64,000 bases of DNA from an uncultured virus (IMG/VR IMGVR_UViG_3300011842_000033) (taxonomy: Duplodnaviria; Heunggongvirae; Uroviricota; Caudoviricetes): the IMG/VR virus record IMGVR_UViG_3300011842_000033; one strand, given 5' to 3'. Positions within the stretch are counted from its first letter, which is position 1. Each line of letters opens with the position of its first letter. The translations under genes and the position numbers were made by a program. Positions 2,530 through 41,983 of the stretch are shown in pieces. The notes under the pieces were generated by a model. The model ran no database searches. It was not told where the DNA came from and saw nothing but the letters and a program-made list of their open reading frames with translations.

Positions 2530-2652
2530 AACAGGTCAGAGCAGCGCCAAGGCGATGACCGAAACGAGCCTAACTTGCTGTGTCAGGCAAAGGCCGGTTC
2601 CCCTGCCGGTCACCTCTCAAAGCCCCGCCATCGTGCGGGGCTTTGTCTTTTC
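2530..2652 (+). ncRNA. Candidate structured late-leader small RNA
   Basis: Three hairpins (second and third carry TGCTGTGTC and TTCCCC) plus terminator AAAGCCCCGC/GCGGGGCTTT; structure conserved at 41831-41963. Confidence 0.5.
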
Positions 2653-27075: not shown

Positions 27076-27228
27076 TCTATAACGGGCCAAATATCAGGGT
27101 ATAACGCGAGGTATCGTAAAGGCGCTACAATCCCCGTCCTGTATGGGCTGGGGCTTCCGGCTCAGTCTCAATCTGTCCCGCTGAATATCGTGTTAGTTCG
27201 GGACAACTGTCACCGGAAACTGTCACGC

Positions 27229-28428
27229 ATGCTAACCGAAAAGCAGATCCGTTCGCTCAAGCCAGAAGACCGCGACTACGTCATGTCCGATGGGCGCGGT
27301 GCGCGTGGCGAAGGGGTGTTGCTGCTGAAGGTTCGCGCCAATGGCACGAAGGAGTTCTACTACCAGTGGTTCGTGGCCGGCAAGAAGAAGCAACGCAAGC
27401 TCGGTGTGTGGCCAACGATGTCGCTCACCGTTGCGCGCGACAAGTGCAAAGGTGCCTCGCCGCAGAGTGAAGCGGAGGGCACGCTGCAGAACCTGATCGA
27501 TTCGTATGTGGCCAAGCTGAAAGCCGAAGGCGCGGCCTCGGCCGGCAACGTGGAATGGTCGCTCAAGCACTATGTCTCTGAGCCGTTCCCGCATCTGGTG
27601 AAGAAGCTGGCCAGCGCCATCGAGCCAGGGGATATCCGGGACATTATCTCCGCGATGATCAAGGCGAAGGTGACCACCTACTGCAACCGGGTGCGGTCGC
27701 AGCTGCATGCGGCGTTCCAGCACGGGCTCAACCAGGAATACAACCCGCGGGACTACCTCAAGTCCAAAGTGCGCTTCGGGTTGACCTATAACCCGGTGGC
27801 GAGCATCCCGGTGCAGGGCGATTGGGAGCGCCCAGGCCAGCGCGTGCTGAGCAAGGAAGAGCTGGCGGCGCTGTGGAACCTGTTGCCCGAGGAGCTGAGC
27901 CTGGTCACGGCGGAGCTGATCAAGTTCCTGATTGCCAGCGGTGGGCAGCGGCCGGAGCAGGTGGTGGCGTCAGACCGCACGATGTACCGCGACGACTACT
28001 ACATGATTCGCAGCAAGAAGGGCGTCGAAGGCGAGCGGGAGATTCATGTGGTGCCGTTCAACGGCCTGAGCCGCGCCTGCCTGGAGCGGCTGAAACCGAT
28101 CTCCGGCGATGAGGCCTTTCCGTTCATGGGCCGGTATAAGAACAACTCGATCAACGTGCAGTCCGTATCGCGGGCGGTGACGAAGCTATGCTCGCGGCAC
28201 CCGGACACGTTCAAGACGCCATTCACGCTGCGTGACCTGAGGCGAACCTGTAAGACGCTGATGGGTGTGGCGGGCATCAGCAAGGAACTGCGCGATCGCA
28301 TCCAGGGGCATGCGTTCAGCGATGTGTCGTCGAAGCACTATGACCGCTACGACTACCTGAAAGAAAAAAGCCAGGGCCTCGAGGATTGGGCTACCTGGCT
28401 TGTAGATGTGGCTGGCGTGAAGCCGTAG
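27229..28428 (+). CDS. int: Tyrosine integrase with N-terminal arm-binding domain
   Basis: MLTEKQIRSLKP, GQR, RDLRRT, GH..HYDRY; adjacent to att. Confidence 0.95.
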   Translation: MLTEKQIRSLKPEDRDYVMSDGRGARGEGVLLLKVRANGTKEFYYQWFVAGKKKQRKLGVWPTMSLTVARDKCKGASPQSEAEGTLQNLIDSYVAKLKAEGAASAGNVEWSLKHYVSEPFPHLVKKLASAIEPGDIRDIISAMIKAKVTTYCNRVRSQLHAAFQHGLNQEYNPRDYLKSKVRFGLTYNPVASIPVQGDWERPGQRVLSKEELAALWNLLPEELSLVTAELIKFLIASGGQRPEQVVASDRTMYRDDYYMIRSKKGVEGEREIHVVPFNGLSRACLERLKPISGDEAFPFMGRYKNNSINVQSVSRAVTKLCSRHPDTFKTPFTLRDLRRTCKTLMGVAGISKELRDRIQGHAFSDVSSKHYDRYDYLKEKSQGLEDWATWLVDVAGVKP

Positions 28429-28930: not shown

Positions 28931-30606
28931 GCTGCATCCTCCCCGAGCTGCTGCGCGCTGAGGTTGGCGCGGACGAGGGCGGCGGCTACCGGTGGGCAGA
29001 CGCTGTTGCCACACATACGCACCTGCGCGGCCTTGCTGAGCTTCTTGCCGTCGGCGGTGCGGTCGTGGATGTAGTCGGCCGGGAAGCCCTGTGCTGCGAA
29101 CAGTTCGTGCGGTTCGAGCATGCGCATGCCGATGTCCACGATCTGGTAGGGCTCGCCCTTGACCATCACCAGACCCATGCGGTGCTTGGTGGTGACGGTG
29201 TGCAGCGGGTCAGTCAGCGGCTGGCCGATGCCGGTGTCGTAATACTTGAGCAGGAACGCGCGAACCTCGCCCATGTGGCCACCGGTAGTCAGCGTATGGA
29301 TAGGCTCGCGCACGTCCTGGCCGATGCAGTTGTTGCGCAGTTTCACCAGGTGGCTGGTCACCAGCGCGTTGTGGTCGACGGTGGTCGCGGTTGGCAGCGG
29401 GCTTTCCAGGCTACTGCCAGGGCCGGTGTAGTTGCCGCCGTAATGTTTGGCGAGGAAGGCGGCGACGAGAGCATGCTTACCGCCGCCGGCGACAACTGTG
29501 CCGAGTGGCTTGTCGAGCCCTGGCGCGCGGGGTGCTTGGCCTTTGCGTTCGCCATAGCCTACCTGCACCAGTGTTGGCGATACGACCGCAAAGTGCCCGC
29601 CTTTCACCTGGGCGCAGATGGTGCGCAGCGGTGCAGCAGCTGGCATGTTGCGCTGGGTGCTCCCGTTGGCGTGCTCGGTGATAAAAGGCGCGAGAGTCGG
29701 AACGACGAGCCCGGTACCGAGCTTGCTGGTAATGGTCTGAAGCGGTTCATCCAGAGCCTGACCTCGGAAGTAGTCGTACCCGTGGTTGACCTTCACTAGG
29801 AATGGTTCGGTCGTCTCCAGCACATAGCGCTGAATGCCTCGCGCGATACGGCGCAGGGTGTTCTCAGCCAGTGGCTTCTTGCGGGTGAAGATCGACGGGC
29901 AAGGCAGCGACCAGTCGATGATCTCCGCGGCGGTGCGCCAGGGTTTCAAGCGCTTGGCCTTGACCGCCTCGCTCGCCGAGTCCCCGTGGGTGGGCTCGGG
30001 CCAGACGATCGGCTGGCCGTCGCAACGGGCGATAAGGAACAGGCGCTTGCGGATGGTCGGGGCGCCGTAGTCACAGGCGCGCAGCTCACGCCAGTCCACC
30101 TGGTAGCCCAGGCGGCGGAGTGCGTTGACGAAGCTGGTGAAAGTGCGGCCCTTGTTCTTCGGGCAGGGTCGGCCATCAGTGGCCAACGGGCCCCAAGTGA
30201 CGAACTCCTCGACGTTCTCCAGCATGATCACCTTCGGCTTGACCGTGGCGGCGTAGCGGATGGCGACCCAGGCGAGGCCGCGGATCTCCTTTTTCACCGG
30301 GGCGCCGCCCTTGGCTTTGCTGAAGTGTTTGCAGTCCGGCGAGAACCAGCACAGATCGACAGGGCGGCCGTTGACGATCACGCGCGGGTCGACTTCCCAT
30401 ACGGATTCGCAGAAGTGCCGGGTGTGTGGGTGATTGATGTCATGCATGGCCACGGCTTCGGGGTCGTGGTTAATGGCGATATCGACGGGGCGACCGAGCC
30501 CAAGCTCGATGCCCGTGGAGGCGCCACCGCCGCCTGCGAAGTTGTCGATGACCAGGCCATGGAAGTTCAAACCGGCCTGTGGGTGGAGTCGGTAGAGGTT
30601 CTTCAT
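28927..30606 (-). CDS. DNA cytosine-5 methyltransferase
   Basis: DNFAGGGG, SPDC, ENV, RKRLF, GNSV; internal PLxT(I/V)T repeats. Confidence 0.95.
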   Translation of the reverse strand: MKNLYRLHPQAGLNFHGLVIDNFAGGGGASTGIELGLGRPVDIAINHDPEAVAMHDINHPHTRHFCESVWEVDPRVIVNGRPVDLCWFSPDCKHFSKAKGGAPVKKEIRGLAWVAIRYAATVKPKVIMLENVEEFVTWGPLATDGRPCPKNKGRTFTSFVNALRRLGYQVDWRELRACDYGAPTIRKRLFLIARCDGQPIVWPEPTHGDSASEAVKAKRLKPWRTAAEIIDWSLPCPSIFTRKKPLAENTLRRIARGIQRYVLETTEPFLVKVNHGYDYFRGQALDEPLQTITSKLGTGLVVPTLAPFITEHANGSTQRNMPAAAPLRTICAQVKGGHFAVVSPTLVQVGYGERKGQAPRAPGLDKPLGTVVAGGGKHALVAAFLAKHYGGNYTGPGSSLESPLPTATTVDHNALVTSHLVKLRNNCIGQDVREPIHTLTTGGHMGEVRAFLLKYYDTGIGQPLTDPLHTVTTKHRMGLVMVKGEPYQIVDIGMRMLEPHELFAAQGFPADYIHDRTADGKKLSKAAQVRMCGNSVCPPVAAALVRANLSAQQLGEDAA

Positions 30607-31109
30607 GGCCGCGGCCCCGCTTGTTCCACCCGGCTACGCAAGTCACTTTCGGCGCCAGTGAAGTGCCTGAATGCATTTTCAAATGACATGCTGACAGCCG
30701 GCAGTAGACGGCCCGATCGAGGTTGCCTGATGATCAGCCGGAGCGTTTGATGCAGGGAGTTGCGGCTATGACAATGATTTGTTTTACCGAGCAATCCGCG
30801 TTCTGCGGTATCACCTATTCGGTCGCGCTGGTGGGCCTTCAGCAGGAAGGTAGTAGGGAAGCCTGGACCTACCACGTCAATATCACATCGAGCGACGGGA
30901 ACGAGACCGCGAGAAGCCTCAAAGGCACCGGCCTCTACGAAGACCTGTCGATTGCTGAGCGTGAGGCTCATGCTCGGGCGCGCTGTTTGATTGAGGCGAG
31001 TACCGCTGCAATTCAAGCCTGAGAGCAAGCCGGCAAACCAAGCGAAGCTGACGCCGATGCGAATAACGCGTTTCGGGAGGCCTGTGCTGGGCGCGTAATG
31101 GTTGTTCAT
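30603..31109 (-). CDS. Hypothetical ORF overlapping MTase start
   Basis: GGGGGA RBS; stop overlaps MTase ATG. Confidence 0.4.
   Translation of the reverse strand: MNNHYAPSTGLPKRVIRIGVSFAWFAGLLSGLNCSGTRLNQTARPSMSLTLSNRQVFVEAGAFEASRGLVPVARCDIDVVGPGFPTTFLLKAHQRDRIGDTAERGLLGKTNHCHSRNSLHQTLRLIIRQPRSGRLLPAVSMSFENAFRHFTGAESDLRSRVEQAGPRP
30768..31022 (+). CDS. Small antisense hypothetical protein
   Basis: AGGGAG RBS, globular-looking 84 aa. Confidence 0.5.
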   Translation: MTMICFTEQSAFCGITYSVALVGLQQEGSREAWTYHVNITSSDGNETARSLKGTGLYEDLSIAEREAHARARCLIEASTAAIQA

Positions 31110-31119
31110 GCCATTCCCC

Positions 31120-31659
31120 CTACATGCACTGCGGCGTCGCCGCGCCGGTGTGTTCGGCGTCGACGCGCTCCCAGGTGGAGAGGGCTCGGTGGGTGGGTTG
31201 CAGCGGGTCTATCGTTGGCAGCGTTTGCCAGTAGCGATCAAACAGCGCGCGGGCGTGGGTTGAGAGCCGGCGGCAGACCTGGGCTTGGTCGGTTGAGCCG
31301 AGTCCCGCGAAGGTGTTGGCGGCTAGGCTGAGTTTTTCGGCCATGGCGATGAGCTGGTTGGCGTCGTCTTCGGACATTACGCGCTGCTGCAAGCTCGCAA
31401 GCTGTGCGCGGGTGGCGTCCAGCTCCTCGGTCAGGTGCTCCAGTGCCTGGGCTGCGTTGAGGCGGCTGATGGTGTGTTCGTGCTGGGCGCGTTCGGCGCG
31501 GTGGCGCAGGTTCTCGACCAGCTGGCGGTTGGCGGTAGCCAGGTGTTCGAGGTCCTGCCGGGCGGCGCGGCGGCCTTCGAGGTAGCCGAGGCCGAAGACA
31601 ATGGCCATGGCGGCGACGGCGCCGACGAAGGCCAGAATCTGGATGGTGGTGAAGTTCAT
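31120..31659 (-). CDS. Hypothetical protein (N-terminal TM plus coiled coil)
   Basis: ORF in early operon. Confidence 0.7.
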   Translation of the reverse strand: MNFTTIQILAFVGAVAAMAIVFGLGYLEGRRAARQDLEHLATANRQLVENLRHRAERAQHEHTISRLNAAQALEHLTEELDATRAQLASLQQRVMSEDDANQLIAMAEKLSLAANTFAGLGSTDQAQVCRRLSTHARALFDRYWQTLPTIDPLQPTHRALSTWERVDAEHTGAATPQCM

Positions 31660-31719
31660 TGCTGTGTCCCTCTGATGTAGAACCGCCGGCTGGTAAGGCC
31701 GGCGGGGTGTGTGCTGCGC

Positions 31720-32550
31720 TTACTTGCCGAGGCTGAAGGTGCCGATGCTCAGGGGCACGATGCCGCCCACTTCCTGCTCGAGCACCGCCTTGAATTCGCG
31801 GGCGAACTCTTCGCGCTGGGCTTCTTCACCGACCCAGCGGAGCTTGAGCTGCGGCTCGTCGCGGCCGGTGATGACGGACAGGCGCAGGGTGATCGTGGTG
31901 ACCTGCAGGCCTTCGAACGGCACGGTGGTGAAGATGAACGCCGACGGCAGGGTTTCCTGGCTCTTGGCCTCGATCTCGTCCATGGCCGAACGGCTGGAGG
32001 AGAAGTCGCCGACGTTGCTGTCGCGCTGGCTGGTGGCCTTGATGGTCATGCGGCGCACGGCGTTGATGGCCTTGATCATGTTCAGGTCAGTGCTGCCGTC
32101 GAGCGCCTGCAGGTTGGGCAGCCAGTCCTCCAGCCATTCGGCGAGCGCCTGCTGGCTGTGCGTTTTGCCGACAATGCCCAGCAGTGCGGCATAGGCGGCG
32201 GTGGGCTTGAGGGTCAGTGTGGCGGTGTCGTCACCGTGGCCGGCGTGGTCGGGCTCGCCCAGGTTGAAGATGACGGTGGCGGACATGGCGTCCTGATCAA
32301 TGAAGCCACCCGGGCGGGGTTGGTTGGCGTTGTCATGGGCGGCGACGTACTTGGTGAAGTCGCGCAGCGAATGAGTGCGCAGTGTTCCGCGGAAACGATC
32401 GCGCAGAGGCTGGTACTGCTCGAGGCTGCGCAGGCTGACCGCTTCCGGCAGCACGGCCACGGAAGTGCCGCCGTCGATGACGATAGGCTTGGCGGCGGCG
32501 ATGATGGCCTGGGACTCGATGTGCTGAATGGCTTCTTTGCTCAGTGGCAT
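31720..32550 (-). CDS. DUF2303 (YfdQ-like) protein
   Basis: SLEQYQPLRDRFRG, GHGDDTA, LAEWLEDW, PFEGL. Confidence 0.85.
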   Translation of the reverse strand: MPLSKEAIQHIESQAIIAAAKPIVIDGGTSVAVLPEAVSLRSLEQYQPLRDRFRGTLRTHSLRDFTKYVAAHDNANQPRPGGFIDQDAMSATVIFNLGEPDHAGHGDDTATLTLKPTAAYAALLGIVGKTHSQQALAEWLEDWLPNLQALDGSTDLNMIKAINAVRRMTIKATSQRDSNVGDFSSSRSAMDEIEAKSQETLPSAFIFTTVPFEGLQVTTITLRLSVITGRDEPQLKLRWVGEEAQREEFAREFKAVLEQEVGGIVPLSIGTFSLGK

Positions 32551-32588
32551 GGTGTTGCTTCCTTGTGTGGTAAGTGGGTTTTGCTGGG

Positions 32589-32936
32589 TCAGACTTCGCG
32601 CGCTTTAACCGGCGCGTCTTCGCGGCTGAACAGCTGCGCGGTCGGGTCGGTTTGGAACAGTTCGAGGCCGTTGGCGGTGACGTACAGCGGCGTGTCGAGC
32701 GTGGTGTCTTCGCGCTTCTTGCCGCGCTTGGTGGGCTGCACGTAGTCGAGCGTGTGCGACACGGCCACCTGGTTGCTCTGGCCAATCTGCTTGAGCTTGA
32801 AGGTCAGGGTGATCTGGCCTTGCTTGCTGTGCTCGATGACGCCTGCGGCGACGTCGGACAGCGCGCGGCCTACCTGGTCGGCGAACACGCCGGCGTTGAG
32901 GCTGTTGATGAACTCGCTGGTGTCGGTTGCTTTCAT
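32589..32936 (-). CDS. YfdP-like partner of DUF2303
   Basis: PTKRGKKREDTTLDTPLYV; adjacent to DUF2303. Confidence 0.7.
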   Translation of the reverse strand: MKATDTSEFINSLNAGVFADQVGRALSDVAAGVIEHSKQGQITLTFKLKQIGQSNQVAVSHTLDYVQPTKRGKKREDTTLDTPLYVTANGLELFQTDPTAQLFSREDAPVKAREV

Positions 32937-32960
32937 TTGCTGTGTCCTTGTTGCGGTTGG

Positions 32961-33227
32961 TTACGACGCCACGCGGTCAGTGGCGGGTTGGGTGTTGCTC
33001 GGGTCGTGGGCGTCCAGCCAGGCGGCCAGATCGCGCAGGTAAACAACGGGTGGCGCCTTGCGGGTGACGTCCGTGCGGGTGTAGCGCAGGCGGACGCGGC
33101 CCTGGTGGATCAGCTTGATCAGCGACTCGACGTCGCCAATGTGCGGCAGGTACTCGGCGCGCACTTCGTCCAGCGGCAGGCAGGGCCGGTCGTAGCGGCG
33201 CAGCAATTGCTGGTAGGTGCTGCTCAC
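32961..33227 (-). CDS. Pyocin activator PrtN-family protein
   Basis: LLRRY..LPLDEVRAEY..VYLRDLAAWLD. Confidence 0.8.
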   Translation of the reverse strand: MSSTYQQLLRRYDRPCLPLDEVRAEYLPHIGDVESLIKLIHQGRVRLRYTRTDVTRKAPPVVYLRDLAAWLDAHDPSNTQPATDRVAS

Positions 33228-33622
33228 CGCGTTGCCCCTCCGATCTCCCCGCGCCCCTCTGAGGTGCGTGCCGGGCTGGGCGCGGTGTGGCGCAGGCGGA
33301 TGAGTTCGGTGACGCCCTCGATGGTCTTGCCCAGCTGGCGGTCGACGACGTTGCCGGCGGCATCGGTGATGACGCAGGCGTAGGGCGTGGCCGGGTCGGT
33401 GGTCAGCGTGACGTAGGGCATGTAGCCGCGCGGCGTGACGGCGAGCAGGCTGCAGAAGAAGCTGCCCAGGTCAGCGGCGCATGGATGATTGAGCCGCAGC
33501 AGGGCGATCGCATCGGCGCAGGCGTCACGCAGCACGGTGGCGGGAACCACGCCGGGGTGGTCCAGATGCAGGCTAGTGAGCTTGAGCGCGCCGATTGCGT
33601 GTTGGTTGGCAGAGATTGTCAT
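33224..33622 (-). CDS. Hypothetical protein
   Basis: Overlaps both neighbours in early operon. Confidence 0.65.
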   Translation of the reverse strand: MTISANQHAIGALKLTSLHLDHPGVVPATVLRDACADAIALLRLNHPCAADLGSFFCSLLAVTPRGYMPYVTLTTDPATPYACVITDAAGNVVDRQLGKTIEGVTELIRLRHTAPSPARTSEGRGEIGGATR

Positions 33623-33894
33623 GCGGCGGCGTCCTTCTTGGTGACGGTGATGCCCAGCTGGTCGGCCAGCCAGCCGATTCCCTTTTCGGTGGCCATGACC
33701 ACGCCGTAATGGCTGTAGGTGCTGATGGCCGGGTTCCAGCGGCTGCGGGTGTCGACGAACAGCCGGCCACGGCTGCGCTCGGTGCTGATGAGCTCGCCGG
33801 CGTGGTTGAGCAGGCCCAGCTCGCGCATACGGGCGCGGAGCTTGCGCGGGCCAATGCCGAGCACGGCGGCTGCCTGGTCGAGGGTGCGGTTCAT
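33619..33894 (-). CDS. Antirepressor KilAC/ANT-domain protein
   Basis: AAVLGIGPRKLRARMR..TEKGIGWL. Confidence 0.8.
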   Translation of the reverse strand: MNRTLDQAAAVLGIGPRKLRARMRELGLLNHAGELISTERSRGRLFVDTRSRWNPAISTYSHYGVVMATEKGIGWLADQLGITVTKKDAAA

Positions 33895-33905
33895 GGTGGC
33901 GGGCC

Positions 33906-34637
33906 TCAGGCTGTGGGGCTGGTGGCCGACAAGGCGCAGCGGGCTTCCGCGATTGCGAGGTCCATCCAGGCGTCTCTGCTCAGCTCAGGAAACAGGCGCT
34001 TCTGGCGGTCCCATTCCGCGCAAATCTTGTGCAGCGCCGGTTCCAGCCTGCTTTCCTCTGGCCGAGCCGGTGCTGGCTCTGCCTGTGCATTCAGATCGCG
34101 CGCGGCAGCGTTGAATGCCGCCGCGGCAGCAGCCAGATCGCTCGGCTCGACAAGCTGTTTACGCTGAATGGCGTTCCATGCGTCGTGCGCTTCGGCCTCG
34201 GTATCAGCACCTTCAACCTTGTGGCAGTCGCGATAGCGACACTTAACACCGTGGAGAAACGCGTTACCGGTCGATGAGTAGTCGTACCCGATAGCCTCGC
34301 CGCCGCATTTGCAGCAGTTTTGCAGTGGTGCGGGTGTAGTGCGCTGCGGGATGGCCTCGGCCGTATCCGCCGTGCCGTTGGCTACCGCCTCGATCCAATC
34401 GGCCAGGTGCTGGGCGTTGGCGCCGTCGTTGCGCTGGAGGGTCATGCTGTGGCGCTGCTCGCGCATGAACAGCACGGCCAGCAGCTGATCGCCGCTGTCG
34501 CTGGTGAATGGCTCGATGCTCAGCTCGGCGCGCAGCTCGCGGGCGGGCTGGGTGAGCAGCAGGGTTTCGCTACCGGCCTGGTTGGCGAGCATGCCGAGGG
34601 CGGCTTCGCTGCCTCTGGTGAGGGAGAAGGTGCTCAT
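33906..34637 (-). CDS. Hypothetical protein with internal Lar-like zinc finger
   Basis: CCKCGG..VKCRYRDC..EAHDAWN. Confidence 0.65.
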   Translation of the reverse strand: MSTFSLTRGSEAALGMLANQAGSETLLLTQPARELRAELSIEPFTSDSGDQLLAVLFMREQRHSMTLQRNDGANAQHLADWIEAVANGTADTAEAIPQRTTPAPLQNCCKCGGEAIGYDYSSTGNAFLHGVKCRYRDCHKVEGADTEAEAHDAWNAIQRKQLVEPSDLAAAAAAFNAAARDLNAQAEPAPARPEESRLEPALHKICAEWDRQKRLFPELSRDAWMDLAIAEARCALSATSPTA

Positions 34638-34828
34638 GCTGCGCCACCGAACGGACCGAAGTCCTCGAAGGCGGGCAGGGTGTGGCGCTTGAGTTGTGCG
34701 GCGCGCAGGGTGACGTGAGCGGTCAGGCCGGTTTCTCGTTCGATGCGGCGCACGGTGAAGGGGTTGGATGCCGATGCCGGGTGCAGAAAGACCGGGCAGC
34801 GGGTGCTGCTGTGCTGTGCTGTGTCCAT
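34634..34828 (-). CDS. First gene of early left operon, hypothetical
   Basis: MDTAQHSSTRCPVFLHP; ATGA overlap with next gene. Confidence 0.65.
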   Translation of the reverse strand: MDTAQHSSTRCPVFLHPASASNPFTVRRIERETGLTAHVTLRAAQLKRHTLPAFEDFGPFGGAA

Positions 34829-34862
34829 TGTCGCGATCCCGTGGTAAGTGGGTACGCGGCAA

Positions 34863-34922
34863 TAATCCGTCAACGAATTTATCTAGTCAATACGCATAGG
34901 GATTAAAATACCAAAGCGGCTT
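34863..34922 (-). promoter_or_regulatory. PL promoter and three operators (AATnCGnnnnCGnATT)
   Basis: TTGACT-17bp-GATTAT; operators 34864-79, 34889-904, 34907-22. Confidence 0.75.
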
Positions 34923-34943
34923 TCCGCGATGAGGCGACGCCTA

Positions 34944-35384
34944 TTAGTGGCTGTCTCGAAACTCTTGGGCGAGGCGTGCAAGGTAGCGCATCAAATCTCT
35001 CTGGCGGGCTTGACCATGAGCATCTGGCCATAGAAACGCTAACAGCTGGTAGCTCTCTTCTTCGAGCTCGCCCTGGACATACACCAGCGCGGCATCTTGC
35101 CCTGGTTTTCCAGGCTGGCAGACGCGGTAATACTGCGCGCGGTCCTGTGGAAAGCGGCCGGGGGGAAGCTTTATGTGGATGTGCATCAACGAGGATTTAA
35201 GCGCTTCGGGAGGCTGCGTGTAGCAGACGTCACGCCCAAAATAATGCGGCGGGTTGGTACGGTCGGATTCTACGTACCGCTGAAAGTCAGCCCTTAATTT
35301 CTCGGCAAGGCCGGGTTAGCTGGCTTCTATCGGAGCGAACAGTTCGGAATATGTGGAGCTATTGAAGGTAACGATTACCGCCAT
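34944..35384 (-). pseudogene. YafO-family toxin with in-frame TAA at codon 23
   Basis: FGRD, HIH, LVY, PDAH..AQEFR motifs; stop at 35316-35318, frame otherwise intact. Confidence 0.75.
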
Positions 35385-35387
35385 TCG

Positions 35388-35900
35388 CTAGGCAATCTTC
35401 GCCAGATGCCTAGTGGAATGGTCTGCAAGCGCTTTCAGCCCTTCCATGTCGATGTCGCTCTCGAAGTAGTCCGGCGTTTCATGAGCTTGGAGAAGAAGAT
35501 TCTCTAGCTGAACCAGTCGGCCTCTGACCTTCGCCACTGAGCGGCGCAAGCCCATGTGCGCCTCCTCAATATCAGGCTGAACGATGGTCCCACGCAGGGC
35601 CGCCTCTAGCGCTCTCGTCATGCTGATGTGGTGTGGAAGACGCTCAAACAGCTCTGCGTCGAAGCACCCGCGCTTAAGAGTGGCCTGAATTGCTTGCGCG
35701 TAGAGTCCGTCCAGTTCATTGAACTGGTCCCGGATCTCTTCGATTATGCGGCGCTGGTCCTGTCGGTTGACTGGCTTACTCGGGCGTTCCGCATGCGACG
35801 ATGAAGAACGCAGATGCGAAGCCTGTGCAGCAACCGAATAATCTCCAACCATTGCCAGCGTGGCCATGATCAGCGATGAGGCAGCGAGATTGAGAGCCAT
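35388..35900 (-). CDS. Hypothetical protein, putative antitoxin/partner of YafO-like gene
   Basis: Stop 3 bp before toxin ATG; downstream of cI. Confidence 0.6.
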   Translation of the reverse strand: MALNLAASSLIMATLAMVGDYSVAAQASHLRSSSSHAERPSKPVNRQDQRRIIEEIRDQFNELDGLYAQAIQATLKRGCFDAELFERLPHHISMTRALEAALRGTIVQPDIEEAHMGLRRSVAKVRGRLVQLENLLLQAHETPDYFESDIDMEGLKALADHSTRHLAKIA

Positions 35901-36033
35901 ATCTGCGTCTCTTTTGGGTGCAAGCATGTTTCAAGTGGCCGGCGAGTATACGGATATAAAGACCGCGTTGCCACTCGCCAGTTCTGTATCTTTACACCTT
36001 TGGTTCGGATTCTGTCCAGTCTCTGCCCGCGGT

Positions 36034-36696
36034 CTACCGTCGTTTCCGCTTGATCCATGAACCAGTCACTACACCGCAGAAGCTCGTTTGTTCTGGCATA
36101 TGCAGGATTCGATTCGGAAATTCCGGGTTCAATGCCAGAAGGTATGTGCCGTCCTCGGTTATCTGCAAGCGCTTGAACGTTACCTGGCCATCCGGAGTGC
36201 GTACGACAACGTCATCGTTGTGCATGGGGACCAGCTCGGGCTCCACGAGAAGAATCTCCCCGGTTCTGTACTCTGGGGACATGCTCAGCCCTCGGACCTC
36301 TAGGCAGTAGGCGGAGGGGCTATGGGGGAACGGGCAGTCCAGCCAGTCATCGGCAAAGCCAGGTTCAAACAAATCTATCGCCTCGCATAAATCTCCGGCG
36401 CGCACCCATGAAATCAGAGGTACGCGTTGATGCAAGGCGGGCCCAGGTCCCAAGGTCGAGTCTAGGGTTTGCGGATCGGGCTGGCGGAGGCCGAGTACTT
36501 CAGCCATGTCCAACCCAAGGGCGCGAGTGAGGCGCTCGATGTAATTGATCTGCGGGTTCTGGAACTCACCCTTGAGGATGCGGTGCACGGTGGATTGGTT
36601 AAGGCCGGCTCTCTTGGCCAGCTCTGTCTCGCTCCAGCCCAGCTTTTCGCGCCTTGCCGCCAGCGTGGCGGCGATGTGACCGATCGAAATAGCCAT
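36034..36696 (-). CDS. cI: CI-like repressor (XRE HTH plus S24 peptidase)
   Basis: HTH SETELAKRAGLNQSTVHRI; VRAG cleavage site, GLSM, TFKRL. Confidence 0.95.
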   Translation of the reverse strand: MAISIGHIAATLAARREKLGWSETELAKRAGLNQSTVHRILKGEFQNPQINYIERLTRALGLDMAEVLGLRQPDPQTLDSTLGPGPALHQRVPLISWVRAGDLCEAIDLFEPGFADDWLDCPFPHSPSAYCLEVRGLSMSPEYRTGEILLVEPELVPMHNDDVVVRTPDGQVTFKRLQITEDGTYLLALNPEFPNRILHMPEQTSFCGVVTGSWIKRKRR

Positions 36697-36704
36697 GCCG
36701 AGAT

Positions 36705-36761
36705 TATTCCTTTGCGAATTATGCAAAGCGTATTGCGGCTGACAATTCCGATGCGTATTAT
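36705..36761 (+). promoter_or_regulatory. PR promoter and OR operators
   Basis: TTGCGG-17bp-TATTAT (36733-36761); operators 36705-20, 36719-34, 36744-59 match the PL consensus. Confidence 0.7.
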
Positions 36762-36796
36762 CTTGCTCAATGCGTAGCCGGATACATTCCTTTGTC

Positions 36797-37054
36797 ATGA
36801 CTACTCCCTCGATCACTGAAATGCTGAAAGCGCTTATCGAAGCTGGGATGACCCAGCAAGGCATCGCTGATGCTATTGGCGTTACTCAGCCGACCGTTTT
36901 CCGGGCGCTGAATGGCGCTGAGCTCCGTTACTGCATCGGTAAGGAGCTGGAAAAGCTCTATGCCGAGAAGAGCGGCGGCGCCGGCTTCGAAGCTGACCGC
37001 CGCCAGGCGGAGCGTAGGCGCGGAGAGCGGCGCCAAGGCGAACGCCGCGCCTAA
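36797..37054 (+). CDS. cro: Cro-like HTH protein with (D/E)RR-repeat tail
   Basis: MTQQGIADAIGVTQPTVFRAL; divergent from cI. Confidence 0.85.
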   Translation: MTTPSITEMLKALIEAGMTQQGIADAIGVTQPTVFRALNGAELRYCIGKELEKLYAEKSGGAGFEADRRQAERRRGERRQGERRA

Positions 37055-37066
37055 CCAGAATCACAG

Positions 37067-37371
37067 CCCGCCTTCAGGACACAGCACAGCAGCACACGTA
37101 TCAGGCGGGAGCCGGCCCGAGAGTCTTACCAACGCCATCGGGCCGGCGCCGGGCAAGCAGCCTAGAAACACAAAAGCCTGTCGCTACGGCGGCAGGCTTG
37201 TATAGAGGTCGAGAACTGGGGACCCACTTACCACAGCAAGAACCCCAGCCTCGACGGTCCGGTAACCGGTTACCAGCCGGCTACCTCAACCCGCGACCCG
37301 TGGACACAGCAGTCATGAGGGTCGCGTGCTGTAGGTGAACTGTAGGGCAACGGCCCGGCGGTTGGCTACAG
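37067..37371 (+). ncRNA. Array of hairpins displaying GGACACAGCA / CTTACCA loops
   Basis: Stems at 37067-109, 37111-147, 37174-199, 37208-255, 37292-326, 37340-371. Confidence 0.55.
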
Positions 37372-37392
37372 CGTTACAGGGGCATTAACGCT

Positions 37393-37884
37393 ATGAGCCG
37401 TAAAGACCTTCTGCCGGGCGCCGGCCCGGTGCTGACCACCCGCCAGGCGCTGTACCGCGCCACGCGGGACGCCGAGGGCGGGCAGCTTGCCGTGGCGCTG
37501 ACCATTGGCATGGACCCGGACGAGCTGAGCAAGCGCGTCAACCCTACGGGCAATCGCCCGATTCACCCTGAGTTCATCGAGGAGATCGTCGCCACGACGC
37601 GCGACCCGCGCCTGCTGGCGGCGTTGGTGCGCCCGGCCGGTGCGGTGGTGTTCGTGCCCAAGCCTGTGCGGGCAACGCCGGATGCGCTGAAGGCGCTGGG
37701 TGAGTTGCTGCAGGCCGAAGGCGAGTTCGTCGGCAGCCTGCACGACGGCGCCGCGGACAGCCACTGGGAGCACCACGAGGTGGAGGCGTTGCGCTACCAC
37801 GCGAACAAGGTGATCGGCGAGATCCTGGGGATTGTGGCCGGCGCTGAGCAGGCGATGGAAGCGGAGGCGGTGTGCCATGGATGA
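37393..37884 (+). CDS. CII-like phage regulatory protein
   Basis: Position after cro; GG..AVALTIGM..LSKRVNP HTH-like. Confidence 0.7.
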   Translation: MSRKDLLPGAGPVLTTRQALYRATRDAEGGQLAVALTIGMDPDELSKRVNPTGNRPIHPEFIEEIVATTRDPRLLAALVRPAGAVVFVPKPVRATPDALKALGELLQAEGEFVGSLHDGAADSHWEHHEVEALRYHANKVIGEILGIVAGAEQAMEAEAVCHG

Positions 37885-38098
37885 GCATCTGATCGAACGT
37901 GCCCAGCGCGAGCAGGACGAGGCGTTGCAGCGGCTCATCGACAGCCGCGTGCAGTACCAGGGCGAAAGCCTGGACGAGTGCGAAGGGTGCGGTGGCGAGA
38001 TTCCGCAGGCCCGGCGCGACGCGGTGAAGGGTTGCCGGATGTGCTTTGACTGCCAGCAGGTGATCGATAAGCGGAATGCGGGGGTGCGGCGTGGTTGA
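37877..38098 (+). CDS. TraR/DksA C4 zinc-finger protein
   Basis: CEGCGGEIPQARR..GCRMCFDCQ. Confidence 0.9.
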   Translation: MDEHLIERAQREQDEALQRLIDSRVQYQGESLDECEGCGGEIPQARRDAVKGCRMCFDCQQVIDKRNAGVRRG

Positions 38099-40793
38099 GC
38101 GCGTTCCTCTTACGCTGGCCGACCTGACCGAGCTGCTGCAGTACATCCCGGCCGATGACCGTGATACCTGGTTGCAGGTGGGCATGGGCATCAAGGCGGA
38201 GTTCGCCAGTGCTGGCTTTGACGCCTGGGATACTTGGAGTGCGACGGGCGCAGGGTATAACGCAGGCGATGCGAAGACGGTTTGGCGGAGCTTCCGCAAG
38301 GCCGGCACGGGCATGGGCACGGTGATCAAACTGGCGAAGGACAACGGCTGGCGGCCGCGCCGGGAGCCAATGACTGCCGAGGAGAAGCGCCGCCTGAATG
38401 CCGAGGCGGAAGCCCGGCGGGCGGTGCGGCAGGCTGAGATCGAAGCGGACGATGCACGGGCCTCGGTGATGCGCGAGGCGGTGGCCAGCGCGTGTGAGCT
38501 GATCTGGACGAAGCATTGCAAGCCGCAAGGCGAAAGCCCCTACCTGGAACGCAAGCTGGTGGGGGCTTTTGGCGTTGGCTATTTCCATTACACGGTTGTG
38601 CTTTCCATCGATGACCAGCGGCAGCGCTGCGATGTGTGGGTGGGCAGCGAGACCCGCGAGTTTTTCGCCAACCTGCCGAAGCCGCGACCAGATTCGATCA
38701 GCTTCCTGATGTTCAAGAAGGGAAGCATTGCCATTCCGCTGCGCGATGCGGCGGGCAAGCTCTGGAGCCTGCAGGCGATCAACGAGCAGGGCACGAAGCT
38801 GTTCCCGAAGTACGGGCGCAAGGCGGGTTGCCGGCATGTGCTGGGTGACCTGGCCGACGCGACGGTGATCGGCGAGGCCGAAGGCTATGCGACGGCTGCC
38901 AGTGTGCATATGGCGAAGGGCTGGCCGGTGGCGATGGCGCTGGACTCCGGCAACATGCCGGCGGTAGCGCGTGACCTGGTGGCGCAATGCCCGGATGCGC
39001 TGCTGGTGGTTGCCGGTGACGATGACCCGACGAAGCCGTGCAACCCGGGCCGCAAGAAGGCGGAAGCGGCGGCGGGTGAGGTGGGCGGCATTGCGGCCTT
39101 CCCGACGCAGCCGGCCGAAGGCGAGGCGGGGCAAGATTGGAACGATGTGCATGTGGCGTGGGGGCTGGATGCGGTAGCGCAGCAGCTCGACGCGGCTGTT
39201 GCCGCTGGCAAGCCTTCCCCGACCCCATCCGCTGACGAAGCCGCTGCGCCGGCCGGCTCCTCCGACAACAGGGGGCAGGGGGTGGGCTTCACCAGTGAGC
39301 AGATCCTGCGGCGGTTCGCGTTGGTGGAAGGCACCACGCACGTCTGGGACCAGGACAAGAAAGCGGTGATGAAGAAGACCGCGTTCGAGGCGCTGGTGAC
39401 GAAGCCGCTGGCGAAGGCCTGGGCGGATGACGTGGCCAAGAAGCTGATCGGCGGCGATACGGTGCGCGAGCTGGAGCAGGCGCGGCGGATGGCGGGCAAG
39501 AAGGCCACGGCGCTGGGGATGACGCCCATCGACCGGTATGTGTACATCGACGGGACGAAGGATGTGTGGGACCGCGAGAAGAAGCGGCGCATCCCGGAGG
39601 GCGCGGTGAAGATGGCGCTGGGCGATGCCTACGCGCTGTGGCTGAACTCGGCCGAGCGCCGCACGGTGGATGTGGACCACATCGTGTTCGACCCGACGAT
39701 GACAAAGGACCCGGCGGTGTACATCAACACGTTCGAGGGGCTGCCGCTGGAGCCGGTGCGCGATGACGCGGCGTGCGAGAACCTGCGCTGGCTGATCTCG
39801 TTCCTGTGCAACCACGAGGCGGAGCCGCTGGACTGGCTGGTGAAGTGGCTGGCCTTTCCGCTGCAGCACCCGGGCGCGAAGCTGGACACGGCGGTGCTGA
39901 TGCATTCGGTAATGGAGGGCTCGGGCAAGAGCCTGCTGTTCGCCGATACGTTGGGTGCGCTGTATGGGCCGTATGCGGCGACAGTTGGGCAGACGCAGCT
40001 GGAATCGAACTTCAACGCTTGGCAGAGCCGGAAGCTGTGGGCGGTGTTCGAGGAAGTGGTCAGCCGTGATCAGCGGTACAACCAGGTGGGCAAGATCAAG
40101 CATCTGATCACCGGCAAGACGGTGCGGATGGAATCGAAGTTCATCAATGGTTGGGAGGAAGCCAACCATATGAATGCGGTGTTCCTTTCGAACGAGATCC
40201 TGCCGTGGCCGATCAGTGAGTCGGACCGGCGCTTTCTGGTGATGTGGCCGTTGGAGACGCTGCCGGAGGAACGGCAGCGGGCGATCGGCGCGGAGCTGGC
40301 GAACGGTGGGGTGGCGGCACTCTACGGCTGGCTGCTGGATGTGGACCTGGGTGACTTCAACGAGCGCACGCGGCCGCCACATACCGAGGCGCGGCGCCGG
40401 CTGGTGGCGCTTTCGCGGGCCGGCTGGCAGACGTTCCTTCATCAGTGGCAGCACGGGGAGTTGGGGCAGAAGCTGTGGGGCGCGTGCCTGTCGACGGACC
40501 TTTATGCGCTGTTCCTCGAGTGGTGCCAGCGCAATCGCGAGCATGCGATGAGCCAGACGAAGTTCAGCCTGTTTATCAGCTCCGAGGTGGAGAAGACGCG
40601 GTCGATCCCCTGGACGGAGGGGGCGAACCGGCGCTTCGGGGCGTTCTTCTTTCCCAGTGACCCGGACTCTTCCCTGCCCCCATCTATGAGCGCGGCTGCG
40701 CTTGGCCAGCATGTGGCGGCCTGGCGGGCGAGGGCGAAATTGGCGGGCTGGGATGTGGACGGCTGGGAGCATTTGAAGGGGGCTGCGGCATGA
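38091..40793 (+). CDS. Primase-helicase (PriCT-2, TOPRIM, SF3 helicase)
   Basis: DDRDTWLQVGM, EGYATA, GDDD, DWND, GSGKS. Confidence 0.95.
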   Translation: MVERVPLTLADLTELLQYIPADDRDTWLQVGMGIKAEFASAGFDAWDTWSATGAGYNAGDAKTVWRSFRKAGTGMGTVIKLAKDNGWRPRREPMTAEEKRRLNAEAEARRAVRQAEIEADDARASVMREAVASACELIWTKHCKPQGESPYLERKLVGAFGVGYFHYTVVLSIDDQRQRCDVWVGSETREFFANLPKPRPDSISFLMFKKGSIAIPLRDAAGKLWSLQAINEQGTKLFPKYGRKAGCRHVLGDLADATVIGEAEGYATAASVHMAKGWPVAMALDSGNMPAVARDLVAQCPDALLVVAGDDDPTKPCNPGRKKAEAAAGEVGGIAAFPTQPAEGEAGQDWNDVHVAWGLDAVAQQLDAAVAAGKPSPTPSADEAAAPAGSSDNRGQGVGFTSEQILRRFALVEGTTHVWDQDKKAVMKKTAFEALVTKPLAKAWADDVAKKLIGGDTVRELEQARRMAGKKATALGMTPIDRYVYIDGTKDVWDREKKRRIPEGAVKMALGDAYALWLNSAERRTVDVDHIVFDPTMTKDPAVYINTFEGLPLEPVRDDAACENLRWLISFLCNHEAEPLDWLVKWLAFPLQHPGAKLDTAVLMHSVMEGSGKSLLFADTLGALYGPYAATVGQTQLESNFNAWQSRKLWAVFEEVVSRDQRYNQVGKIKHLITGKTVRMESKFINGWEEANHMNAVFLSNEILPWPISESDRRFLVMWPLETLPEERQRAIGAELANGGVAALYGWLLDVDLGDFNERTRPPHTEARRRLVALSRAGWQTFLHQWQHGELGQKLWGACLSTDLYALFLEWCQRNREHAMSQTKFSLFISSEVEKTRSIPWTEGANRRFGAFFFPSDPDSSLPPSMSAAALGQHVAAWRARAKLAGWDVDGWEHLKGAAA

Positions 40794-41739: not shown

Positions 41740-41824
41740 TCAACCGTGCTCAAGTGTGCTCAACCGTGTTGAACAGCGCCGCGAAAAACGGGCGGTTGCG
41801 GGCGTTGCATGTCGGCTGTAGAAA
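41740..41824 (+). promoter_or_regulatory. Putative late promoter with three phased repeats
   Basis: TCAA(C/G) at 41740, 41750, 41760; TTGCGG-17bp-TAGAAA. Confidence 0.5.
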
Positions 41825-41830
41825 GTGCCC

Positions 41831-41963
41831 ATGGTTGTAGAGCTGCGCCCGCAGCGATAACCGCCGAGCGACGTGCTGTGTCGCGGCCTGTTCCCCGGCA
41901 GGCCAGCCCTCGCAAGAGGGCACCCATTCCAAGGCTCACCCCAAACGGTGGGCCTTTTTCATT
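41831..41963 (+). ncRNA. Candidate structured late-leader small RNA
   Basis: Hairpin loops GTGCTGT and TTCCCC, extra GCAA hairpin, terminator 41931-41959. Confidence 0.5.
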
Positions 41964-41983
41964 TGTGCCGCTGGAGGTCAAGC

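What the first reader, a model, noticed from the sequence alone, without database searches (positions are those of the whole stretch)
31660..34853. Two motifs alternate at translation starts through the early left operon
Seen on the minus (sense) strand: ACCCACTTACCAC at 34841-53 (hairpin loop at the 5' end of the PL transcript) and 32567-79 (before the DUF2303 RBS). CTTACCA is the loop of a perfect 8-bp stem at 31683-31705. GGACACAGCA occurs at 34817-26 (overlapping the start codon, followed by CAGCA repeats), 32938-47 and 31660-69 (both spanning the RBS up to the ATG). They are always in sense orientation, also in the rightward transcript, so they likely act as RNA. Inference: coordinated post-transcriptional control of early genes by an antisense RNA and/or an RNA-binding protein.
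Basis: partly seen in the sequence, partly recalled or inferred. Interest (0 to 1): 0.8.

Follow-up and report, generated by a model that had tools for sequence, protein, structure and literature searches.

The report
Phage antisense RNA and its targets
The two repeated motifs are most likely docking sites on a prophage's early messenger RNAs for a small antisense RNA, encoded on the opposite strand between cro and cII, that could switch those genes off together.

Summary
All coordinates are right and both motifs exceed chance: GGACACAGCA occurs 5 times against 0.17 expected, ACCCACTTACCAC 3 times against 0.01. They are phage-specific and conserved in about 90 related Pseudomonadaceae phage loci.

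Motif B (GACACAGCA) sits 0-9 nt before start codons of many different early genes. Motif A sits at the 5' end of the PL mRNA or in GC-hairpin loops just upstream.

The "rightward sense copies" at 37222 and 37302 are best read on the other strand. That stretch has:
- a conserved minus-strand promoter, in 63 of 65 distinct spacers;
- a hairpin with a U-tract;
- folding that favours the minus strand, with 72 G-U pairs against 6, and more stable in 20 of 21 sequences.

This predicts a ~166-nt sRNA whose loops are exact complements of A and B. Loop and target alleles agree in 59 of 61 loci. A second anti-B hairpin lies in the late-operon leader in 55 of 62 loci.

No transcript was seen. The scan found the same sRNA earlier on other DNA (e1-5767143). 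It works like the P1/P7 c4 RNA but is not a member of that family.

The parts
34862..34890 (-). PL promoter-like site (TTGACT, 17 nt, GATTAT). The inferred start near 34855 puts motif A at about +3 to +15 of the PL mRNA.
   Evidence: 9 of 12 matches. It forms an operator-like inverted repeat with the PR region (I1). In relatives, homology across different immunity modules resumes exactly at GTACCCAC.
34841..34853 (-). Target site A at the 5' end of the PL mRNA, in the loop of a weak hairpin. It is a 13-nt exact complement of the sRNA SL3 loop.
   Evidence: Its allele matches the sRNA loop allele in 59 of 61 loci.
34803..34827 (-). Target site B over the start codon of the first PL gene (64 aa, phrog_13491), followed by CAGCA repeats. 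It is an 11-nt exact complement of the sRNA SL1 loop.
   Evidence: Relatives conserve the motif in different reading frames, so the conservation is at nucleotide level rather than protein level.
32938..32947 (-). Target site B spanning the SD region up to the ATG of the yfdP-like gene (32936).
   Evidence: The region is predicted unstructured.
32559..32579 (-). Target site A just upstream of the SD of the DUF2303/YfdQ gene (ATG 32550). 14 nt match exactly, and 18 of 21 nt are complementary to the sRNA SL3 loop.
   Evidence: (I15).
31683..31705 (-). GC hairpin (8 bp) with loop CTTACCA. Its loop and 3' arm (31696-31685) are a 12-nt exact complement of the sRNA SL2.
31660..31669 (-). Target site B abutting the ATG (31659) of the gene after yfdQ.
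37339..37368 (-). Predicted sRNA promoter: -35 TAGCCA (37368-63), 18-nt spacer, -10 TACAGT (37344-39).
   Evidence: The pattern TAGCC[AG]/17-18 nt/TAnnnT is found on the minus strand in 63 of 65 distinct spacers, on the plus strand in 1 of 65, and in 0 of 164 control windows. It falls below the strict consensus scan.
37165..37332 (-). Predicted ~166-nt antisense sRNA. SL1 (37332-37287) has a loop with anti-B. SL2 (37285-37256) has loop CUGGUAA. SL3 (37255-37208) has a loop with anti-A. The terminator hairpin is 37197-37176, followed by UUUUGUGUUU.
   Evidence: Minus-strand fold: -88.9 kcal/mol, z -5.39. 17 of 29 pairs carry compensatory changes. G-U pairs: 72 on the minus strand against 6 on the plus strand. 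Alifold: -34.4 against -20.7; the minus strand is more stable in 20 of 21 sequences. No Rfam family matches. No transcript was seen.
37067..37147 (+). Hairpins H1 (loop with B, 37077-86) and H2 (loop with CTTACCA, 37125-31), just beyond the sRNA terminator. They are sense copies on the PR mRNA: either targets or decoys. The folding strand is not settled.
   Evidence: Alifold favours the plus strand (-21.9 against -11.4), but single-sequence energies tie (plus more stable in 8 of 21).
41868..41884 (+). Late-leader hairpin presenting a second anti-B (GTGCTGTGTC, 41873-82), upstream of an intrinsic terminator.
   Evidence: The anti-B core lies 25-115 nt before a terminator in 55 of 62 loci. Stems covary among five leader types.
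41931..41966 (+). Intrinsic terminator of the late leader, just before the first late gene (ATG 41984, phrog_3897).
2575..2584 (+). Anti-B (TTGCTGTGTC) in the late leader of the neighbouring tandem prophage X.

Best explanation
Motifs A and B are seed-match sites on the leftward early mRNAs. They lie at the 5' end of the PL transcript and at the ribosome-binding regions of each cistron that is not translationally coupled. Their likely partner is a ~166-nt trans-acting antisense sRNA made from the minus strand of the cro-cII spacer (about 37332 to 37166).

The sRNA has three stem-loops:
- SL1 loop: the exact complement of B.
- SL3 loop: the exact complement of A.
- SL2 loop: the complement of the hairpin at 31696-85.

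Pairing would cover the SD, the AUG or the mRNA 5' end. It would therefore block 30S binding or expose the mRNA to decay, silencing the early-left operon as a block. That operon holds a KilAC/antirepressor-like gene, a PrtN-like gene, and the excision and methylase genes.

A hairpin in the late-operon leader RNA carries a second copy of anti-B and may add a late shut-off.

Shown here: the motifs, their positions and their conservation; the exact complementarity; loop and target alleles that agree across phages; and minus-strand promoter, terminator and folding signals.

Inferred: that the sRNA is made, that it pairs with these sites, and that the effect is repression.
For: Complementarity. The six best matches between the sRNA gene and the sense strand of the left operon are 14, 13, 12, 11, 10 and 10 nt. 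All fall on the PL 5' end or on translation-start regions. The antisense of the same operon gives no match above 9 nt.

Minus-strand transcription unit.
- A -35/-10 pattern is present in 63 of 65 distinct spacers on the minus strand, 1 of 65 on the plus strand, and 0 of 164 control windows.
- The hairpin at 37197-37176 is followed by a U-tract on the minus strand only.
- Canonical pairs are 561 of 601 on the minus strand (72 G-U) against 495 of 601 on the plus strand (6 G-U).
- One G-U pair is kept in 20 of 21 sequences.
- On the same alignment columns, alifold gives -34.4 against -20.7, and the minus strand is more stable in 20 of 21 sequences.
- 17 of 29 pairs carry compensatory changes.

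Covariation of regulator and targets. The SL3-loop allele (TT, TC or CT before ACCA) equals the PL-leader allele in 59 of 61 loci. Other lineages switch both sides together: CTCTACA, CTCTGAC and CTCTCAC with anti-B covering the AUG, GACACAGCC, and ACACGCACATG.

Position and orientation. In the left operon, sense contexts of ACACAGC outnumber antisense 117 to 1. In 74 contexts (73 loci) a start codon follows within 9 nt.

Phage-specific. The motifs are not a host feature.

Late-leader anti-B. It is present in 55 of 62 loci and in five diverged leader types.
Against: No transcript, 5' end or 3' end has been seen.
- The three raw RNA runs held 0, 0 and 1 reads of this phage.
- The one metatranscriptome gave only unstranded contigs.

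The predicted signals are imperfect.
- The promoter scores 8 of 12 and fails the strict scan.
- The terminator stem has a C-A mismatch on the minus strand in this phage, where the plus strand has a G-T pair.

The statistics have limits.
- Matches of 9-10 nt are common by chance here: shuffles give a mean of 5.7.
- Duplex energies of B sites with the late leader (-17.5 to -25.4) overlap the controls (mean -15.8, sd 4.3; minimum -30.1).
- The allele concordance is not phylogenetically independent. There are three main classes and the number of switches is unknown.

Some features are not explained.
- H1 and H2 carry the motifs in sense on the PR mRNA, and their role is open.
- Two loci (L043, L044) have discordant alleles.
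- The late leader is absent from Halopseudomonas-type phages that keep B.
- In L015 and L096 the late leader pairs only with a bulge.
Confidence: 0.62

Rival explanations
1. All ten copies are sense sites on the PL and PR mRNAs. The only antisense regulator is the late-operon leader RNA (about 41850-41960), which pairs with B.
For: A conserved anti-B hairpin lies before a terminator in 55 of 62 loci and in five diverged leader types. It pairs over 9-10 contiguous nt with every B site. The StxS sRNA of Stx phages is a precedent for a leader RNA made by early termination just downstream of the late promoter PR' (PMC7547250; search listing and start of abstract only).
Against: The leader holds no complement of A, so it cannot explain why A alleles agree across copies. 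It is absent from two complete Halopseudomonas-type proviruses that keep B. The 37208-37332 stretch folds better on the minus strand and has its own promoter. No strict promoter is found before the leader.
Confidence: 0.1
2. A and B are bound in sense RNA by a protein. One option is a RegA-like translational repressor. Another is an N/nut-like antitermination set, with the A hairpin bound by a phage factor and B by a host factor.
For: The motifs lie just downstream of PL and downstream of cro, flanking the swappable immunity module as nut sites do. A sits in hairpin loops with lineage-specific sequence while B is universal.
Against: No N-like or RNA-binding family was found in the early genes. 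The first PL protein is identical or nearly so in phages with different A alleles. A k-mer association between the CTTACCA and CTCACCA classes found only the sites themselves and linked bases. Sites at internal start codons, and minus-strand folding of the PR-side copies, do not fit nut.
Confidence: 0.1
3. There is no trans factor. B is a reused efficient start region (SD plus a CA-rich unstructured spacer) and the hairpins are mRNA stabilisers or recombination linkers at module joints. The complements elsewhere are by-products.
For: B includes the SD purines with a fixed short spacing to the ATG. The same cassette precedes unrelated genes in different phages. Homology breakpoints coincide with the cassettes. 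Start-associated sequences of Cluster K mycobacteriophages have no known partner (PMC3203893, passages).
Against: This does not explain the exact 10-14-nt complements concentrated in loops of a conserved promoter-to-terminator unit. It does not explain why regulator loop and target change together. It does not explain why B is kept downstream of the ATG, and in different reading frames, in the first PL gene.
Confidence: 0.1
4. The motifs are DNA sites for a phage DNA-binding protein, for example the CII-like or PrtN-like regulator.
For: B occurs in both orientations if the late leader is counted.
Against: Sense bias in the left operon is 117 to 1. The motifs sit in hairpin loops whose stems covary. 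G-U asymmetry implies an RNA fold.
Confidence: 0.03

Closest known systems
c4 antisense RNA of phages P1/P7 (immI), with P4 CI RNA as a relative
   Same: It is a small phage RNA whose loops pair with short repeated complementary sites on the phage's own mRNA, covering a ribosome-binding region. Seed and targets differ between related phages in step. This is described in the review PMC12197685 (passages); the detail on P1/P7 heteroimmunity is recalled.
   Different: c4 is cut out of the same transcript that carries its targets. The RNA here has its own promoter and terminator. It lies convergent inside the PR operon and targets at least five sites in the divergent PL operon. There is no sequence or Rfam match.
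Start-associated sequences (SAS/ESAS) of Cluster K mycobacteriophages
   Same: Both are an asymmetric short motif a few bases before start codons of non-structural genes. Both occur in one orientation, are absent from the host, precede genes of different families, and often have an inverted repeat just upstream whose sequence differs by subcluster (PMC3203893, passages).
   Different: The motif sequence differs. The SAS authors found no support for RNA hairpins in ESAS and favoured DNA-binding proteins. Here the stems covary. Here a complementary RNA gene is also present, and none is known for SAS.
StxS sRNA of Stx phages
   Same: It is a short leader RNA made by early termination downstream of the late promoter PR' and acts as a base-pairing sRNA (PMC7547250, listing and start of abstract; PMC12197685, passages). 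It resembles the late-leader anti-B hairpin here. That lambda 6S RNA is the equivalent PR' leader is recalled, not seen in a call.
   Different: StxS acts on rpoS and stx1 mRNAs, not on a tag shared by the phage's own early genes. No Q-like antiterminator has been identified here.
Lambda OOP RNA and P22 sar RNA
   Same: Both are short leftward antisense RNAs inside or beside the early-right or immunity region that lower expression of lysis-lysogeny genes (recalled; sar is cited in PMC12197685).
   Different: Both act in cis on the overlapping transcript only. The RNA here would also act in trans through two or three loop seeds.
Lambda nutL/nutR
   Same: It is a two-part RNA site placed after PL and after cro, at the borders of the immunity module (recalled).
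   Different: There is no boxA-like sequence and no N homologue. Sites also occur at internal start codons. The PR-side copies fold on the opposite strand.

Membership tests
c4-type phage antisense RNA (P1/P7 c4, P4 CI) | Small RNA with loops complementary to repeated sites on the phage's own mRNA, including a ribosome-binding region | tested here: met
   Exact complements of 10-14 nt fall at six 5'-end or start-region sites.
c4-type phage antisense RNA (P1/P7 c4, P4 CI) | Regulator processed from the same operon transcript, upstream of its targets | tested here: not met
   The sRNA has its own minus-strand promoter and terminator, and its targets lie in the divergent PL operon.
c4-type phage antisense RNA (P1/P7 c4, P4 CI) | Sequence and structure homology to the curated RNA family | tested here: not met
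   A scan of 30000-39000, both strands, against all Rfam 15 families at E<=1 gave only two unrelated sub-threshold hits.
c4-type phage antisense RNA (P1/P7 c4, P4 CI) | Seed and target change together between heteroimmune relatives | tested here: met
   59 of 61 loci are concordant. Other lineages switch both sides together.
Start-associated sequences (Cluster K SAS/ESAS) | Asymmetric motif within a few nt of start codons, in one orientation, in non-structural genes, absent from the host | tested here: met
   (74 contexts with a start within 9 nt; 117 sense against 1 antisense). for the host.
Start-associated sequences (Cluster K SAS/ESAS) | The 13-bp SAS consensus given in PMC3203893 | tested here: not met
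   B is a different sequence. The likeness is in placement only.
Lambda-type nut site | boxA-like linear element plus boxB hairpin, with an N-type antiterminator as first PL gene | tested here: not met
   No Pfam or PHROG function was found for the first PL gene. That protein does not track the A allele. The PR-side copies fold on the minus strand. The boxA comparison rests on recall only.
RsmA/CsrA-binding sites (GGA in loops) | Conserved GGA core in hairpin loops or over the SD | tested here: not met
   In the P. aeruginosa-type relatives the H6 loop keeps GACACAGCAC but has no GGA.
Hfq-type trans-acting sRNA | Own promoter, seed region, intrinsic terminator with U-tail; expression and Hfq binding | tested here: inconclusive
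   Promoter, seeds and terminator are predicted. Expression was not seen. Hfq binding is not testable with these tools.

The most novel reading that the evidence does not exclude
The sRNA is made in lysogens and forms a second, RNA-based immunity layer. At least six A alleles exist (CTTACCA, CTCACCA, CCTACCA, CTCTACA, CTCTGAC, CTCTCAC). These would define specificity classes that are independent of repressor immunity.

Under this reading a resident prophage silences the early-left operon of any incoming relative of the same class. The universal B seed, repeated in the late leader, shuts early genes off once late transcription starts. The sense copies H1 and H2 on the PR mRNA would then act as decoys that free the targets when PR fires.
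Probability: 0.25. Interest if true: 0.85.

Novelty: new variant of a known kind. Interest (0 to 1): 0.72.

Why it matters
If the model holds, three things follow.

- **An unrecognised control layer.** A widespread group of temperate Pseudomonas, Stutzerimonas and Halopseudomonas phages would control a whole early operon with one small RNA that reads a shared tag on each start region. That layer of the lysis-lysogeny switch is missed when only repressors are annotated.
- **A mechanism for start-associated sequences.** The function of these motifs has been open since they were described in Cluster K mycobacteriophages (PMC3203893). A trans-acting RNA that reads them would be the first concrete proposal.
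- **A ready-made experiment.** The natural single-base allele pairs, CTTACCA in PG1 and CTCACCA in pAN, amount to a compensatory-mutation test already performed by evolution.

I found no description in print. Searches found nothing on these motifs or on this sRNA. The scan itself had already flagged the same sRNA on other DNA (e1-5767143).

Tried and rejected
**Complementarity to host 16S rRNA (G001 copy).** Core motifs are no better than shuffles: the fraction of shuffles at least as good is 0.34, 0.07, 0.69 and 0.08. Only one variant-specific extension reached 0.01. Sense-strand likenesses to 16S were judged chance.

**RsmA/CsrA sites.** GGA is not conserved in the P. aeruginosa-type loops.

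**A complement of A as sense RNA elsewhere in the loci.** None was found for five allele classes. The sixth gave only scattered coding hits. This search assumed the cro-cII copies were sense, which I later revised.

**The first PL protein as specificity factor.** Identical or near-identical proteins go with different alleles.

**K-mer association between allele classes (12 against 21 loci).** It recovered only the sites and linked bases.

**Duplex energies.**
- Long-sequence RNAduplex was uninformative: controls were as low as the targets.
- Short windows overlapped the controls.

**RNA evidence.**
- Three raw-read runs of the species label held 0, 0 and 1 reads of this phage, so they are no test.
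- One metatranscriptome gave unstranded contigs covering 34728-37574, and none over the late leader.

**Late leader in Halopseudomonas-type proviruses.** It was not found by promoter, terminator or motif patterns.

**The mini-ORF after B at 37315.** It is not conserved.

**Literature search for the motif letters.** It returned only unrelated eukaryotic primers.

**Look-up of this genome's earlier notes.** None exist.


Full report
**What the window is.** The finding lies in the early region of a lambda-like prophage of the Stutzerimonas stutzeri type.
- The closest named relatives are phage PG1 (92.8% identity over 63% of 31500-38500) and vB_PstS-pAN (86.2% over 49%).
- Gene order: integrase 27190-28428 (+); a leftward early operon from about 34828 down to about 28430; a low-GC insert with a YafO-like gene; an S24 repressor at 36034-36696 (-); a cro-like gene at 36797-37054 (+); a 340-nt non-coding spacer; then a CII (CP76-family) gene at 37393-37884, a DksA/TraR-like gene, a primase, and the late genes.
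- PL and PR sit in a 40-nt operator-like inverted repeat (I1). A PL promoter-like site lies at 34890-34862.
- The window's own assembly is not held. I used the nearest genome, G001, as host proxy.

**The observation.** All coordinates are correct.
- GGACACAGCA (B) occurs 5 times against 0.17 expected; 0 of 100 shuffles reach 5.
- ACCCACTTACCAC (A) occurs 3 times against 0.01 expected; 0 of 100 shuffles reach 3.
- The core CTTACCA occurs 6 times against 2.35 expected (3 of 100 shuffles reach 6), and 5 of the 6 lie between 31691 and 37233.
- The 8-bp stem at 31683-31705 is perfect.
- In G001, B occurs 8 times in 4.8 Mb, 5 of them within 5 kb of its related prophage (reversed-pattern control: 4). 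B followed by YATG occurs 0 times. The exact A 13-mer occurs twice, both in that prophage. Neither motif is therefore a host ribosome-site feature.

**Relatives.** Using the CII-like protein as an unbiased handle, I fetched 11 genome loci and 77 viral loci, with CII identity from 53 to 100%.
- The 9-mer GACACAGCA occurs in 174 distinct contexts.
- For the 7-mer ACACAGC in the left operon, 117 distinct contexts are sense and 1 is antisense. In 74 contexts (73 of 91 loci) an ATG or GTG opening at least 40 codons follows within 9 nt. Most often it follows 2 nt after the 7-mer: 56 of 86 start-linked contexts over all regions.
- The genes behind B differ from phage to phage.
- In the first PL gene, B lies just after or around the ATG and in different reading frames in different lineages. 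It is therefore conserved as nucleotides, not as protein.
- Upstream of B there is usually a GC hairpin whose loop carries A.
- Each phage has one dominant A allele in 3-10 sense copies. The alleles are CTTACCA, CTCACCA, CCTACCA, CTCTACA, CTCTGAC and CTCTCAC. Sense-to-antisense totals are 125:3, 285:16 and 109:8 for the first three.
- This placement closely resembles the start-associated sequences of Cluster K mycobacteriophages, whose function is unknown (PMC3203893, passages).

**The cro-cII spacer.** Read on the plus strand it folds into seven hairpins (z -4.76; pAN z -5.51). B sits in the loops of H1 and H6, and A in the loops of H2, H4 and H5. In 22 aligned spacers, 13 of 38 pairs show compensatory changes. 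At first I read this as a structured PR leader carrying sense copies.

**The change of reading.** It proposes a ~170-nt sRNA between cro and cII with two loops complementary to early ribosome-binding regions. I tested that claim here.
- (i) Promoter. On the minus strand there is a promoter-like TAGCCA (37368-63), an 18-nt spacer, and TACAGT (37344-39). The pattern TAGCC[AG]/17-18 nt/TAnnnT occurs on the minus strand in 63 of 65 distinct spacers, on the plus strand in 1 of 65, and in 0 of 164 control windows of the same loci. A looser version hit 67 of 67.
- (ii) Terminator. Hairpin H3 (37176-37197) is followed by a U-rich tract only when read on the minus strand, both here and in the 21 aligned relatives.
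- (iii) Strand asymmetry of pairing. In the helices of the 37208-37332 stretch, 561 of 601 cells are canonical on the minus strand (72 G-U) against 495 of 601 (6 G-U) on the plus strand. One G-U pair is kept in 20 of 21 sequences. That structure was predicted on the minus-strand alignment and so leans towards it.
- (iv) A less biased comparison on the same alignment columns. Alifold gives -34.38 for the minus strand against -20.67 for the plus strand. Single-sequence energies favour the minus strand in 20 of 21.
- (v) The minus-strand RNA folds at -88.9 kcal/mol, z -5.39, and 17 of 29 pairs have compensatory changes.
- The unit runs from about 37332 to about 37166, roughly 166 nt. No Rfam family matches it.

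**Complementarity to targets.** The best exact matches between the sRNA gene and the sense RNA of the left operon are:

| Length | Left-operon position | Site |
|---|---|---|
| 14 nt | 32579-66 | before the yfdQ SD |
| 13 nt | 34853-41 | 5' end of the PL mRNA |
| 12 nt | 31696-85 | loop and 3' arm of the hairpin |
| 11 nt | 34827-17 | over the first start codon |
| 10 nt | 31669-60 | start region |
| 10 nt | 32947-38 | start region |

- The remaining 9-10-nt matches lie in coding sequence and are at chance level: shuffles give a mean of 5.7 matches of 9 nt or more.
- The antisense of the operon gives only two 9-mers.
- The seeds sit in the loops of SL1 (anti-B), SL2 and SL3 (anti-A).
- The B start regions are predicted unstructured.

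**Regulator and targets change together.** The dinucleotide before ACCA in the SL3 (H4) loop equals that in the PL leader in 59 of 61 loci: 24 TT, 28 TC and 7 CT. Two are discordant, L043 and L044. The two sites are separated by immunity modules of several unrelated types.
- Against the noisier count of all left-operon sites, 51 of 75 loci agree, 17 tie and 7 disagree.
- In the P. aeruginosa-type proviruses the minus-strand RNA would carry a 13-nt anti-B that covers the AUG, plus two loops complementary to their own A allele.
- Halopseudomonas-type phages have GACACAGCC both in the spacer loops and at start regions.
- Denitrificimonas-type phages share GCACATGCA between the H6 loop and their start regions.
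- These classes are related by descent, so the counts are not independent events.

**The late leader.** The complement of B also lies on the plus strand at 41873-82. It sits in a small hairpin 50 nt before an intrinsic terminator (41931-56) and before the first late gene. A second copy is at 2575-84 in the neighbouring prophage.
- The core GCTGTG lies 25-115 nt before a terminator of this type in 55 of 62 loci with enough downstream DNA. Five other 6-mers gave 0-15; one overlapping 6-mer gave 27.
- Five leader types that share little else keep it, and the hairpin stems covary.
- It is missing from all five Halopseudomonas-type loci and from two complete proviruses of that type. In L015 and L096 it is changed and pairs only with a bulge.
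- The leader has no complement of A.
- I read it as a second, late source of anti-B, comparable to the StxS RNA made by early termination downstream of PR' (PMC7547250, listing and start of abstract only).

**What remains open.**
- No RNA has been seen. The raw RNA runs held essentially no reads of this phage, and the metatranscriptome contigs are unstranded.
- The direction of the effect is inferred from the position of the sites.
- H1 and H2, just past the sRNA terminator, carry B and A in sense on the PR mRNA. Consensus folding favours the plus strand (-21.9 against -11.4) but single-sequence energies tie. They could be targets, decoys, or part of a read-through form.

**Comparison with known systems.** It works like the c4 RNA of P1/P7: loops pairing with repeated sites on the phage's own mRNA, and seed and target diverging in step (PMC12197685, passages; details recalled). 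It is not a member of that family. It has its own promoter and terminator, targets a divergent operon, and has no Rfam match.
- Its targets look like SAS/ESAS.
- Its late-leader element looks like StxS.
- Searches found no paper describing these motifs or this sRNA.
- The scan has noted the same sRNA before (e1-5767143) and analogous start-tag and mirror-RNA pairs in other phages (e1-5965918, e1-7982344). I did not check those.

Noticed in passing
window 1-27100 and 27190-64000: The window holds two related prophages in tandem. Positions 1-25000 match phage PG1 at 97.2% over 91%, running from the 3' part of the primase gene through the late genes. A second prophage then starts at the integrase (27190). 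The two primase genes share only patches of identity, at an offset of 39206.
   Followed up: partly
window 40800-41110: There are many copies of GTGTTGGGTT-like iterons in both orientations between the primase gene and the next gene. This is probably the replication origin. Relatives L015, L096 and L066 have a different iteron (TGTCTAGGGT, 9-14 copies) at the same place.
   Followed up: no
window 34900-36030: A low-GC insert lies between PL and the repressor gene. It carries a YafO-like toxin family ORF (34944-35189, minus strand, Pfam E 3e-13) and a 179-aa ORF of no family. One metatranscriptome contig covering 34728-36774 has a depth of 212, far above the neighbouring phage genes.
   Followed up: no
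window 48033-48045: A 13-nt exact complement of the sRNA segment between SL2 and SL1 (CCGGCTACCTCAA) lies inside a late gene on the sense strand. About 0.07 such matches are expected in that stretch, so it may be a further target or chance.
   Followed up: no
window 41790-41850; L-series late leaders: Upstream of the late leader there is a conserved GGTA(C/G)AAAG block with a TTGCGG- or TTTACG-like hexamer 17 nt before it. This may be the late promoter. The gene before it (41119-41706, phrog_4300) has no known function and could be the late regulator.
   Followed up: partly
window 42352-43299: A low-GC leftward ORF of 315 aa is inserted between the first late gene and the small terminase gene. 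It looks like a moron.
   Followed up: no
window 37200-37207 and 41838-41846: A (G/A)TAGAG block recurs after H3 in the cro-cII spacer and near the start of the late leader, in the same sense. It is conserved in relatives and unexplained.
   Followed up: no
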